Below, piece after piece: positions 13,424 through 15,517 of a stretch of DNA of 64,000 nucleotides (the first letter of the stretch is position 1; the number at the start of each line of letters is the position of its first letter). The stretch is from IMG/VR virus record IMGVR_UViG_3300009320_000008, positions 1-64,000 of that record; one strand, written 5' to 3'. The notes beneath the pieces were generated by a model. It was not told where the DNA came from, made no database searches, and saw nothing but the letters and a program-made list of their open reading frames with translations. Source of the stretch: a virus. A program made the translations under genes and the position numbers.

Positions 13424-15517
13424 TTAAAATGAAATATCATCATTCTTGGTTCCTGATTTGCAAGCTAACAAGGTAGCACTTGTGAGTCCTGCCCTACCAA
13501 TATACATGAAGGAATCAAAAAATAGAGATTGTATTTTGAATAGGCGCATGGACTGTGCCATCGTTGTATCCTCATTCAACATTATCGCCTCAATATAATT
13601 GAGGATTCCCCTCCTTGTTTGCTCGGCATCTCCACTGAAGTTATTCAATGCCTTTCTTGCTCTTTCCCATTTGTGATTTCCAGAAGTTGAAGGGTCGATA
13701 AGAATCTTGACAAGATCCTCTGTTTGTCTTCCCCCTGTGCTGATCATTTGCAATGCTTCAATGGCAACTCGTGGGTCTTCGATGTCAATCACCTCGTCCA
13801 GCATCTTTAAAGCCTTACCAGGTGATCCATTTGACATGAGTGTTATTTCTTCAAGGACGGGTCTGAGTGGTTCTAATCCTTCTGCTCCACATATGTCATG
13901 CAACAGGGAGAGCAGTTCCCCACGAACAAGGGGTTTCGGTTCATATTGATGGCTTCTACGTTGGATAGCTTCTCTTAATATAGGCTTTATGATTTCCATT
14001 TCAGCCGTTGCCAATATGAAATGAACATGGGCTGGAGGTTCTTCGAGACTGGTGAGAAGGGCGTTCCATCCATCAACCGTGATCTTGTGGCAATTATGCA
14101 CCATAACATTATTGGCTATATACGAATGATCCTTTTCTATTTCTAAATCATAAAATTCTATAAATCCTTTATTTCTTTCTTTATCTTTGATAACACTTTG
14201 GAAAGATTGGTCATTACTTCCTCGTTGGTAAATCTCAACACTTTCCACCCTAATTCTTTCAGTCGATCCCCTTTCTTTTTGTCTAATGATATTTGTTTTT
14301 TTGTTCTGTGACCTTTCCCGTCCACTTCTACTCCCAACATTAGTTCTATGTTCGCTATATCCAATTTGTAATTTTTTGGATAACCTTTTCTCCATTTCCC
14401 CAATCCCACAGCTACTTCCATCGGCCATCCCAAAGCAGTGGCTAAAAGTATTTGTGGTTCTGTAAAATGTCCGTTCCCTCCACGTTTTCCTTTCCAAATA
14501 TGAAGTGATCCATTCAACCGCTTTACCTCTAACATTTTCTTTATGTTTTTTTTGTTTTTCATTGGGTTTTTGGTCTTCATTCGAATAGATCTTTTCAAGC
14601 GGAGACTTTTTGATTCTTCCGAATCTGAATTCCAAAATCTTTTTAAGGATGTTTTTTGCTTTTCTTTGGTTGATTGGGAATAGACTTTCTTTCTGAATTC
14701 CCCTTGGAAATTTCTCCATTTCCCAACACATTTTTGAGAGCAGAAACGATGTCCAATCGATCTTATTCCCAAAAATGTTTTCCCACAATGTTGGCATTGC
14801 ATTGGATTTCGTGTTTTGCATTCCAAACAGTATAAAGCGTTCCATGATTTTGGACAAAATTCTTTTTGGCATCCTTGACAAATAATCATTGATTTTAGTA
14901 TCCTTTTGTGAATTTTTGTTTAGCATTAATTCACTATCATAGCAAACCAATTCATGTTTGTCAAGAAATATAGCTTTTTTCCAACCATTGTCAGTATCAA
15001 ATTCATGTTCCTTAGAACAAAACATTGAACTTCCATTAGAAAAATTCAATCTAATAACACGATCAAGAGGAACTTTGTTTATGAATTTATTTTTTACGAT
15101 ATCAATTCCCTGCCTATTGAAAACAGACTCTCCCACCTCTATTTTTTCAATGGGAACCAATCCCTTTTTTACAGTTGTGATAGGTGTTCCTTTTGCAAAA
15201 CATTCATCGAAAAAATACGCTTTCTTCTCCCCATGAGCAGGGGCATAATGAGAGTCGGTAATGACATCACGGATTGTATCTATACCCCTTGTGTTGGCAG
15301 TGTTGTAGGCGTAGAAATCAGCATCATGGATGCTCAATGCATTTTGGATGATACGAGCTAAGGTTGTCTTCCCCGTTCCCGGACGGCCTGTGAAAAGAAA
15401 GGTTGAGGGGATTTTGTCAGGATCCCTTGCTAAAACAAGACCCAAAGATTCTACCAGGGCATCATTTCCATAAAATTCATCAAGACTCTCCGGCCTATAC
15501 GTAATGTGCAAGGGCAT
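13424..15517 (-). CDS. dnaX: DnaX (Pol III gamma/tau)-like clamp loader containing an intein
   Basis: YRPESLDE, GRPGTGKTT, FFDE|intein|CH, NALLTSLEEPP. Confidence 0.9.
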   Translation of the reverse strand: MPLHITYRPESLDEFYGNDALVESLGLVLARDPDKIPSTFLFTGRPGTGKTTLARIIQNALSIHDADFYAYNTANTRGIDTIRDVITDSHYAPAHGEKKAYFFDECFAKGTPITTVKKGLVPIEKIEVGESVFNRQGIDIVKNKFINKVPLDRVIRLNFSNGSSMFCSKEHEFDTDNGWKKAIFLDKHELVCYDSELMLNKNSQKDTKINDYLSRMPKRILSKIMERFILFGMQNTKSNAMPTLWENIFGNKIDWTSFLLSKMCWEMEKFPRGIQKESLFPINQRKAKNILKKILEFRFGRIKKSPLEKIYSNEDQKPNEKQKKHKENVRGKAVEWITSYLERKTWRERTFYRTTNTFSHCFGMADGSSCGIGEMEKRLSKKLQIGYSEHRTNVGSRSGRERSQNKKTNIIRQKERGSTERIRVESVEIYQRGSNDQSFQSVIKDKERNKGFIEFYDLEIEKDHSYIANNVMVHNCHKITVDGWNALLTSLEEPPAHVHFILATAEMEIIKPILREAIQRRSHQYEPKPLVRGELLSLLHDICGAEGLEPLRPVLEEITLMSNGSPGKALKMLDEVIDIEDPRVAIEALQMISTGGRQTEDLVKILIDPSTSGNHKWERARKALNNFSGDAEQTRRGILNYIEAIMLNEDTTMAQSMRLFKIQSLFFDSFMYIGRAGLTSATLLACKSGTKNDDISF
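14093..15202 (-). mobile_element. Intein (370 aa) inserted after the Walker B DE
   Basis: Begins CFAKGT, block B CSKEHEF, ends YDLEI..VMVHN followed by Cys. Confidence 0.92.
14158..14889 (-). CDS. Vsr/DUF559-like endonuclease with zinc fingers, overprinted in the +1 frame inside the intein
   Basis: CxxC repeats, YKLDIA..GVEVDGKGH..D..L..LGWKVLRFTN; AAGGA upstream of ATG. Confidence 0.85.
   Translation of the reverse strand: MIICQGCQKEFCPKSWNALYCLECKTRNPMQCQHCGKTFLGIRSIGHRFCSQKCVGKWRNFQGEFRKKVYSQSTKEKQKTSLKRFWNSDSEESKSLRLKRSIRMKTKNPMKNKKNIKKMLEVKRLNGSLHIWKGKRGGNGHFTEPQILLATALGWPMEVAVGLGKWRKGYPKNYKLDIANIELMLGVEVDGKGHRTKKQISLDKKKGDRLKELGWKVLRFTNEEVMTNLSKVLSKIKKEIKDL

What the first reader, a model, noticed from the sequence alone, without database searches (positions are those of the whole stretch)
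14093..15202. Intein whose endonuclease is overprinted in a different reading frame
Seen: the DnaX intein frame stays open for 370 codons, but its middle has no recognisable domain. A 243-aa zinc-finger plus Vsr/DUF559-like nuclease occupies the +1 frame (14889-14158), with its own ATG and an upstream AAGGA. The overlap reaches the C-terminal splicing region: RIRVESVEI is encoded by the same bases as ELGWKVLRF. Established: intein homing endonucleases are normally in frame. Inference: about 730 nt of true dual coding lets the nuclease be expressed independently of the host protein.
Basis: partly seen in the sequence, partly recalled or inferred. Interest (0 to 1): 0.82.

Follow-up and report, generated by a model that had tools for sequence, protein, structure and literature searches.

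The report
Intein with overlapping out-of-frame homing nuclease
A phage clamp-loader gene carries a self-splicing intein whose middle also encodes, one base out of step, a separate Vsr-like DNA-cutting "homing" enzyme; selection keeps both frames open in a large phage family, but out-of-frame intein nucleases were already described for other nuclease types.

Summary
The 697-aa phage clamp-loader ORF (15517..13424, minus strand) holds a 370-aa intein (15202..14093). A 243-aa Zn-finger plus DUF559/Vsr-like nuclease ORF (14889..14158) lies in its +1 frame.

It is neither chance nor an assembly error:
- Synonymous shuffles of the nuclease give 10-18 stops in the intein frame; 0 are observed.
- 78 of 80 related viral loci, and two cultured phage genomes I checked, keep the same +1 layout.
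- Across 63 nuclease genes, 0 of 5,222 codons that could create an intein-frame stop end in T, against 27.5% elsewhere.

The nuclease frame is under purifying selection and folds confidently (pLDDT 93). The intein frame is a disordered linker for about 205 codons. The last ~37 nuclease codons also encode a folded C-terminal splicing strand, and both frames are constrained there.

A 91%-identical relative has the exact intein-free allele. All family members sit at the Walker B/DExH motif (GATGAR|TGYCA) of clamp loaders and three helicase types.

The layout class is published (Gorbalenya 1998 as cited; 2025-26 preprints) for other nucleases. A same-strand Vsr-like nuclease in a contiguous intein was not in the papers I read. 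This scan has met the layout before on other DNA: 63 notes in at least 52 genomes.

The parts
13424..15517 (-). Host gene: phage DNA-polymerase clamp loader (AAA+, DnaX-like), 697 aa with the intein and 327 aa without it.
   Evidence: ORF. Pfam DNA_pol3_delta2/AAA. The intein-free homolog L090 hits phrog_5846 'clamp loader' at 4e-51.
14093..15202 (-). Intein, 370 aa: Cys1, C-terminal His-Asn, +1 Cys. It is inserted in Walker B between FFDE and CHKIT.
   Evidence: boundaries. (Intein_splicing, 36.8 bits against a cut-off of 35.8). (the intein-free allele reads FFDECHKIT, 327 aa).
14918..15202 (-). N-terminal splicing (Hint) part, intein residues 1 to about 95.
   Evidence: AF2 pLDDT about 97 for residues 1-90. 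Foldseek top hits are gp41-1, Ssp DnaB and Mtu RecA inteins, E down to 1.4e-6.
14273..14905 (-). Intein-frame linker, residues about 100-310: stop-free but predicted disordered, with no domain.
   Evidence: pLDDT mostly below 50. Intein-frame amino-acid identity is 0.20-0.22 against 0.37-0.41 in the nuclease frame.
14093..14272 (-). C-terminal splicing part, intein residues 311-370, including strand 315-324 (RIRVESVEIY) and the terminal HN.
   Evidence: pLDDT 82-97 with strands at 315-324, 347-355, 360-363 and 366-369.
14158..14889 (-). Nuclease gene in the +1 frame (243 aa plus TAG stop). It has N-terminal Cys4 zinc-finger units, a helical middle with an RGGNG motif, and a C-terminal Vsr/DUF559-type nuclease.
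   Evidence: AF2 pLDDT 93.2. VIA-align Z 13.2 to 3hrl, 11.6 to I-Bth0305I (3r3p) and 10.0 to Vsr.
14161..14475 (-). Nuclease catalytic domain, residues 139-243. D177, D190, H194, D203 and K206 are invariant and E188 is at least 90% conserved.
   Evidence: 67 sequences; model range 139-243 aligned.
14161..14272 (-). Doubly constrained overlap: the last ~37 nuclease codons and the first ~38 codons of the folded C-terminal Hint part.
   Evidence: coordinates. In one search, identical codon given identical nuclease residue is 0.66 here against 0.44 in the linker, and intein-frame identity is 0.47 against 0.22.
14901..14905 (-). Shine-Dalgarno-like AAGGA, 11 nt upstream of the nuclease ATG (14889..14887).
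   Evidence: An SD-like 4-5-mer at spacing 3-14 occurs in 37 of 63 loci, and in most of the close clamp-loader group.
14936..14964 (-). Sigma-70-like promoter candidate inside the N-Hint coding region: TTGACA, 17 nt, TG-n-TATGAT (11 of 12). Its -35 hexamer starts about 75 nt upstream of the nuclease ATG.
   Evidence: In one search, matches of 10/12 or better, with the -35 hexamer starting 48-79 nt upstream of the ATG, occur in 9 of 27 clamp-loader loci against 0 of 27 in each of two control windows.

Best explanation
This is a mobile intein plus homing-nuclease unit in which two proteins are read from the same strand in two frames.

Ribosomes translating the clamp-loader mRNA read straight through the intein. 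That gives the N-terminal Hint part, a stop-free disordered linker of about 210 residues, and the C-terminal Hint part. The intein then splices itself out and restores ...FFDE-CHKIT..., the Walker B motif of an essential replication protein.

Independently, ribosomes start at an internal SD/ATG in the +1 frame, probably on a transcript from an internal sigma-70-like promoter. They make a 243-aa Zn-finger plus Vsr/EDxHD-type nuclease.

By analogy with I-Bth0305I, this nuclease would cut intein-free alleles at or near GATGAR|TGYCA during co-infection, and repair would copy the whole unit in.

Shown here: both frames are open under selection; the nuclease frame is under purifying selection and folds; the intein has intact splicing motifs and fold; a precise intein-free allele exists; the target motif is shared across hosts.

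Inferred: splicing activity, nuclease cleavage and its specificity, and use of the internal promoter and SD.
For: - Frame openness: 0 stops against a mean of 10-18 in synonymous shuffles, and 0 of 5,000 shuffles stop-free in six of the seven sequences shuffled (six related loci and the window), 2 of 5,000 for the truncated L007 copy.
- 78 of 80 related viral loci keep the host frame open over the whole nuclease, always with the nuclease at +1.
- Across 63 non-redundant loci, 0 of 5,222 nuclease codons preceding AA/AG/GA end in T, against 27.5% elsewhere. The active-site Tyr174 is TAC in 63 of 63, while Tyr elsewhere is 72% TAT.
- Nuclease-frame selection: amino-acid identity 0.38 against 0.21 in the intein frame; codon position 3 is the most variable (0.51/0.55/0.39).
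- Folds: nuclease pLDDT 93.2, with Z 13.2, 11.6 and 10.0 to 3hrl, I-Bth0305I and Vsr. The intein ends have pLDDT above 80 and the middle below 50, and match mini- and split inteins.
- The intein-free allele in the 91%-identical relative L090 is exactly 327 aa and reads FFDECHKIT. The target DNA differs at 3 of 36 bases.
- Start signals.
- In both cultured phage genomes I opened, Vibrio CP-T1 gp10 and Corynebacterium phi673 gp43, the nuclease lies in the +1 frame and is unannotated.
- Logan contigs over 14301-14451 and 14649-15400 are identical to the window, with no indels.
Against: - No expression, splicing or cleavage data exist for this element, and no RNA run was found.
- The SD spacing in this window (11 nt) is on the long side.
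- The promoter-like site is a consensus match, present at 10/12 or better in only a third of close relatives.
- The match to the characterised homing enzyme I-Bth0305I is weak by sequence (E=0.005). The N-terminal DNA-binding part is Zn-fingers, whereas NUMOD motifs are what is described for I-Bth0305I.
- The run laid on the window is possibly the source sample, and it covers only part of the region.
Confidence: 0.85

Rival explanations
1. Assembly or sequencing artefact: two compensating indels put a normally in-frame endonuclease domain out of frame.
For: The window is a metagenomic virus record, and the laid contigs cover only part of the region.
Against: The same +1 offset, with separate ATG and stop, is seen in 78 of 80 independent viral loci from many samples and in cultured, finished phage genomes. 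Codon choice is adapted to avoid intein-frame stops. The laid contigs are identical to the window.
Confidence: 0.01
2. The nuclease ORF in this particular genome is a non-functional relic. The element behaves as a mini-intein with a long junk linker and no longer homes.
For: The homing-cycle theory discussed in the 2026 preprint predicts nuclease decay after fixation. Decayed copies exist in the family: L007/L088 is truncated to 115 aa with D-to-N in the E-x-D motif, and L065 is frameshifted.
Against: The window copy is full length with every invariant residue. It retains ATG, SD and a promoter-like site. Family-wide substitution patterns show purifying selection on this frame. An intein-free target allele still circulates in a 91%-identical relative.
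Confidence: 0.07
3. The gene is functionally 'fractured'. The two halves are translated separately and joined by trans-splicing, as in the split-intein loci of Dassa et al. 2009, so translation through the linker is not needed.
For: The nuclease belongs to the Vsr-like type found in fractured genes, and its 3' end overlaps the C-intein as it does there. The best structural match of the intein is the gp41-1 intein; that gp41-1 comes from a Dassa-type fractured locus is from memory, not read here. One relative (L036) has a single stop in the linker.
Against: If read-through were unnecessary, the linker frame would hold 10-18 stops. It holds none in 78 of 80 loci, and codon usage is shaped to avoid them.
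Confidence: 0.03
4. The nuclease is made as part of the intein polypeptide by programmed ribosomal frameshifting, not from its own start.
For: None was found. The sequence alone cannot exclude it.
Against: A conserved ATG preceded by AAGGAG-like motifs is present in most close relatives. After a +1 shift, translation would end at the nuclease stop, 22 codons before the intein end, giving a dead-end product without the splicing C-terminus.
Confidence: 0.03

Closest known systems
Non-canonical inteins with the homing endonuclease in another frame or strand: Gorbalenya 1998 (as cited); actinobacteriophage survey, bioRxiv 10.1101/2025.01.02.630785; cyanobacterial dnaX intein, bioRxiv 10.64898/2026.09.14.751524.
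   Same: The intein frame is open but structureless in the middle. A confident nuclease fold sits in an overlapping ORF with its own SD. There is purifying selection on the nuclease frame. Annotation pipelines miss it. The 2026 case also sits in a dnaX-type gene.
   Different: Those cases are LAGLIDADG (+2 ORF), endonuclease VII-like (frame 3), or antisense LAGLIDADG and antisense VSR-like. Here a Vsr/DUF559-like nuclease lies on the same strand at +1. The 2025 survey lists VSR-like nucleases only as antisense or in split inteins. Here the overlap also extends into the folded C-terminal splicing part.
Fractured genes: split inteins with a free-standing Vsr-like or GIY-YIG endonuclease gene between the halves (Dassa et al. 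2009, PMC2677866).
   Same: Phage DNA-replication genes as hosts. The same nuclease type on the same strand. The nuclease 3' end overlaps the C-intein coding region (6-69 bp there). The closest solved intein structure to ours is gp41-1.
   Different: There the N-intein ends at a stop, a 27-51 nt gap follows, and the C-intein has its own start. Here the intein frame is uninterrupted and selected to stay so.
I-Bth0305I, prototype of the EDxHD (Vsr-like) homing endonuclease family (Taylor et al. 2011, PMC3239194; PDB 3r3p).
   Same: The C-terminal nuclease fold (Z 11.6, rmsd 2.4 Å over 88 residues), and a modular N-terminal DNA-binding region followed by a C-terminal catalytic domain.
   Different: I-Bth0305I is encoded in a group I intron and has NUMOD motifs. 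Ours is overprinted on an intein and has Cys4 zinc-finger units. By sequence it is closer to DUF559 (3hrl, E=2e-11) than to 3r3p (E=0.005).

Membership tests
Intein (class 1 Hint splicing domain) | N-terminal Cys/Ser nucleophile, a block B TxxH-type histidine, C-terminal His-Asn, and a +1 Cys/Ser/Thr. | tested here: met
   C1, SKEH (H66, at least 90% conserved), HN at 369-370 and +1 Cys. C1 and N370 are invariant in 63 sequences.
Intein (class 1 Hint splicing domain) | Hint fold formed by the N- and C-terminal parts. | tested here: met
   AF2 pLDDT above 80 for residues 1-90 and 311-370. Foldseek finds gp41-1, DnaB, RecA and DnaE inteins at E 1e-6 to 1e-4 with probability 1.00. Pfam Intein_splicing scores above its cut-off.
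Intein (class 1 Hint splicing domain) | Precise in-frame insertion relative to an uninterrupted allele. | tested here: met
   The L090 allele is 327 aa (697 minus 370) and reads FFDE-CHKIT.
Intein (class 1 Hint splicing domain) | Protein splicing activity. | not testable with these tools
   This needs expression and a Western blot or mass spectrometry.
Vsr-like / DUF559 / EDxHD homing endonucleases | Vsr-type nuclease fold. | tested here: met
   Pfam DUF559 at 46.7 bits against a cut-off of 20.6. VIA-align Z 13.2 (3hrl), 11.6 (3r3p) and 10.0 (1cw0) over model residues 139-243.
Vsr-like / DUF559 / EDxHD homing endonucleases | Conserved acidic and histidine catalytic residues (the composite EDxHD motif). 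| tested here: inconclusive
   D177, D190, H194 and D203 are invariant and E188 is at least 90% conserved in 67 sequences. The residue-by-residue mapping onto H213/D222 of I-Bth0305I was not established.
Vsr-like / DUF559 / EDxHD homing endonucleases | NUMOD-type N-terminal DNA-binding modules, as in I-Bth0305I. | tested here: inconclusive
   The N-terminus has CxxC...CxxxC units with weak zinc-finger hits. No NUMOD family was reported, and no dedicated test was run.
Vsr-like / DUF559 / EDxHD homing endonucleases | Site-specific cleavage of the element-free allele. | not testable with these tools
   This needs purified protein and an L090-type substrate.
Non-canonical inteins with an out-of-frame endonuclease | The intein frame is open across a complete nuclease ORF in another frame, with selection on the nuclease frame. 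| tested here: met
Fractured genes (split intein plus free-standing endonuclease) | A stop after the N-intein and a separate start for the C-intein. | tested here: not met
   There are 0 stops in 370 intein codons, and the same holds in 78 of 80 relatives.

The most novel reading that the evidence does not exclude
The overlap may be an evolved interlock and not just an accident of insertion. The nuclease 3' end encodes the first folded strand of the C-terminal splicing part, and the rest must stay stop-free. The nuclease gene therefore cannot be deleted or broken by most indels without killing an essential replication gene. That would slow the decay expected under the homing cycle.

On this reading the family, which targets the DExH/Walker B motif of clamp loaders and three helicase families, is the contiguous sister or ancestor of the fractured-gene split inteins such as gp41-1.

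Hints in favour:
- The truncated copy L007/L088 keeps exactly the 3' part of the nuclease.
- L036 has a single linker stop.
- The best structural match of the intein is gp41-1.
Probability: 0.3. Interest if true: 0.65.

Novelty: new variant of a known kind. Interest (0 to 1): 0.48.

Why it matters
- It shows that overprinting of a homing nuclease on an intein is the stable, selected state of a large phage element family, not a rare curiosity. There were 163 IMG/VR matches, and both cultured phage genomes I opened show it.
- The family hits the Walker B/DExH motif of several essential ATPases.
- These nuclease genes are unannotated in the two deposited genomes I opened, so homing endonuclease counts in phages may be underestimated.
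- The family links contiguous inteins to the fractured genes that yielded the fast split inteins used in protein engineering.
- It offers a natural example of gene entanglement, with a very clean codon-level signature: 0 of 5,222 codons.

Tried and rejected
- RNA evidence: no RNA holder was listed for the region. The one DNA run, kept as contigs, covered only 14301-14451 and 14649-15400, so it does not independently verify the nuclease 3' end.
- RBS sequestration: folding the 91 nt around the nuclease start gave an unremarkable structure (z = -1.46). No case for a regulatory hairpin.
- A second copy in the same virus: the profile search of the 80-kb record found only this copy.
- Foldseek alone on the nuclease gave only marginal E-values (6e-3). 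The VIA-align second look was needed.
- I could not find the text of Gorbalenya 1998 in the library. It is cited only through the two preprints.
- Co-divergence of the N-Hint part and the nuclease is only moderate (Spearman 0.44). I make no claim of a single origin or of strict co-inheritance.
- The scan with the C-extein found only one close relative, so the sporadic distribution of the intein among clamp loaders rests on that one intein-free allele.

Full report
**What is there.** On the minus strand, a 697-aa ORF (15517..13424) encodes a phage clamp loader interrupted by a 370-aa intein (15202..14093). The intein begins CFAKG and ends VMVHN, followed by Cys. The intein frame has no stop in 370 codons, and the third frame has 44. 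In the +1 frame a 243-aa ORF (14889..14158) starts with ATG and ends with TAG. Pfam finds DUF559 in it (E=3.4e-12, above the cut-off). In the host frame Pfam finds only clamp-loader and Intein_splicing domains, with nothing in the intein middle.

**Chance or error?** I shuffled synonymous codons within the nuclease ORF, which keeps its protein and codon usage. This gives a mean of 11.4 stops in the intein frame, and no stop-free shuffle in 5,000. The frame not used by either protein has 24 stops, as expected. Six related viral loci behave the same way.

A profile scan of IMG/VR returned 163 matches, of which the best 80 were fetched. In 78 of the 80, the frame one base upstream of the nuclease frame is open across the whole nuclease, within host ORFs of 376-1,898 aa (a few cut short by contig ends). 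The nuclease is always at +1. The exceptions are informative:
- L057 is a free-standing homolog.
- L036 has a single stop in the linker.
- L065 counts among the 78, but is frameshifted at the nuclease 3' end.

In the two cultured, finished genomes I opened, the nuclease sits at +1 inside an annotated helicase gene and is not annotated: Vibrio phage CP-T1 gp10 and Corynebacterium phage phi673 gp43. Public contigs from a marine metagenome run match 14301-14451 and 14649-15400 without differences. Compensating indel errors are therefore excluded.

**Which frame is selected, and for what?** I built a codon alignment of 63 non-redundant loci.
- Mean pairwise amino-acid identity is 0.38 in the nuclease frame and 0.21 in the intein frame.
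- Nucleotide conservation by nuclease codon position is 0.51, 0.55 and 0.39. The nuclease wobble base, which is intein codon position 1, varies most.
- The intein frame nevertheless leaves a sharp mark. Of 5,222 nuclease codons followed by a codon starting AA, AG or GA, none ends in T, against 27.5% of 10,831 codons elsewhere.
- The invariant Tyr174 before Lys175 is TAC in 63 of 63 loci, although Tyr is TAT in 72% of other contexts. TAT-AAR would create TAA in the intein frame.

So the nuclease is selected as a protein, and the intein frame is selected to be translatable.

**Structures.**
- With a 67-sequence alignment, AlphaFold2 folds the nuclease at mean pLDDT 93.2.
- Its residues 139-243 align to the DUF559 protein 3hrl (Z 13.2, rmsd 1.2 Å, 84 residues), the homing endonuclease I-Bth0305I (Z 11.6) and Vsr (Z 10.0). 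A profile search of PDB sequences gives 3hrl at 2e-11 and 3r3p at 0.005.
- D177, D190, H194, D203 and K206 are invariant.
- The intein model has pLDDT about 97 for residues 1-90, below 50 for most of 100-310, and 82-97 for 311-370, with a strand at 315-324. Its best PDB matches are mini- and split inteins, led by gp41-1.

The nuclease spans intein codons 105-348. Its last ~37 codons therefore overlap the folded C-terminal splicing part. In that stretch, synonymous variation of the nuclease is suppressed: identical codon given identical residue is 0.66 against 0.44 in the clamp-loader group. Intein-frame identity doubles, from 0.22 to 0.47. Only this ~110 nt is dual coding of two folded segments. 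The other ~620 nt pair a folded nuclease with a stop-free linker.

**Mobility and target.** A relative with 91% identity in the C-extein (L090) carries the intein-free allele. It is 327 aa, exactly 697 minus 370, and reads FFDECHKIT. The 36 nt around the site differ at three bases from the joined exteins of the window.

The family inserts at hhhDE|C(H/Q), with a few DE|S junctions and L026, L033 and L064 two residues further on, after DEAH. This is Walker B, or motif II, in four host types:
- clamp loaders (31 loci including the window);
- ResIII/DEAD helicases (21);
- SNF2 helicases (21);
- a Strawberry-notch-like helicase.

The DNA consensus is GATGAR|TGYCA. The shared motif probably lets the element move between gene families. 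That is an inference, in line with the model proposed for other inteins in bioRxiv 10.1101/2025.01.02.630785.

**Expression signals.** Most close relatives have AAGGA(G) 6-10 nt before the nuclease ATG. The window has a strong sigma-70-like site inside the N-Hint coding region: TTGACA, 17 nt, TG-n-TATGAT, 11 of 12, at 14964..14936. Sites of 10/12 or better, with the -35 hexamer starting 48-79 nt upstream of the ATG (mostly 61-79), occur in 9 of 27 clamp-loader loci, against 0 of 27 in each of two control windows. This supports independent transcription and translation, but it is consensus matching only.

**Comparison with the literature.** Out-of-frame or antisense intein endonucleases are a known rare class.
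- Gorbalenya 1998 is cited for this. I could not read it.
- The actinobacteriophage survey reports antisense LAGLIDADG, antisense VSR-like and a frame-3 endonuclease VII-like nuclease. It states that VSR-like nucleases were otherwise known only from split inteins.
- The 2026 preprint shows a LAGLIDADG enzyme in the +2 ORF of the cyanobacterial dnaX intein.
- Dassa et al. 2009 described Vsr-like nuclease genes between split-intein halves, with the nuclease 3' end overlapping the C-intein by 6-69 bp.

The present family is the contiguous, same-strand, +1 counterpart with a Vsr-like nuclease. I did not find this combination in those papers, so I class it as a new variant of a known kind. This scan has met the same layout before on other DNA: 63 notes in at least 52 genomes. 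My own tests agree with those follow-ups.

**Verdict.** "True dual coding" of folded protein is limited to ~110 nt. And the layout is a family trait, not a peculiarity of this gene. Function (splicing, cleavage, homing) is inferred from intact motifs, folds, selection patterns and the existence of the empty target allele.

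Noticed in passing
L036:2611-2613 (clamp-loader locus, IMGVR_UViG_3300007537_000440): There is a single stop in the intein-frame linker while the overlapping nuclease ORF is intact. It could be a fresh nonsense mutation, a read error, or a nascent fractured gene or split intein.
   Followed up: partly
L065:3060-3090 (SNF2 helicase locus): Compared with L053, the 3' end of the nuclease and the start of the C-terminal Hint part are shortened, and the rest of the intein continues in another frame. 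This is a broken copy or an assembly error.
   Followed up: partly
L057:2339-2980: A free-standing homolog of the nuclease sits in a high-GC phage contig, not inside any intein. The other frames there hold 7-11 stops. This fits the idea that free-standing genes invade mini-inteins.
   Followed up: partly
L007:2989-3333 (= L088): A helicase intein of only 203 aa keeps a 115-aa remnant of the nuclease (3' part only, with EVNG in place of E-x-D-G). Both frames are still open, so the part that overlaps the C-terminal splicing region is what survives.
   Followed up: partly
L091 (Vibrio phage CP-T1, NC_019457.1 gp10) and L092 (Corynebacterium phage phi673, NC_042354.1 gp43): The deposited annotations list only the helicase. 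Complete nuclease ORFs of 250 and 215 codons (stop to stop) in the +1 frame are unannotated. About 38 further phage records matched the nuclease's C-terminal domain by tblastn, most under annotated helicase genes; their frames were not checked.
   Followed up: partly
L026 and L033 (clamp loaders); L064 (SNF2): The insertion point is shifted by two residues (DEAH|C...) relative to the usual DE|CH junction, so the family uses at least two neighbouring sites in Walker B.
   Followed up: no
L060:2405-3403 and L062:2249-3040: The nuclease-frame ORF runs past the intein's C-terminal HN into the C-extein coding region. In some members the overlap may therefore reach the host protein itself. My start and stop calls for these distant members are heuristic.
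   Followed up: no
L050:161-4189, L077:700-4212 and L027:865-3849: These host genes appear to carry a second intein: a LAGLIDADG_3 hit in L050, two Intein_splicing stretches in L077, and an extein about twice the usual length in L027.
   Followed up: no
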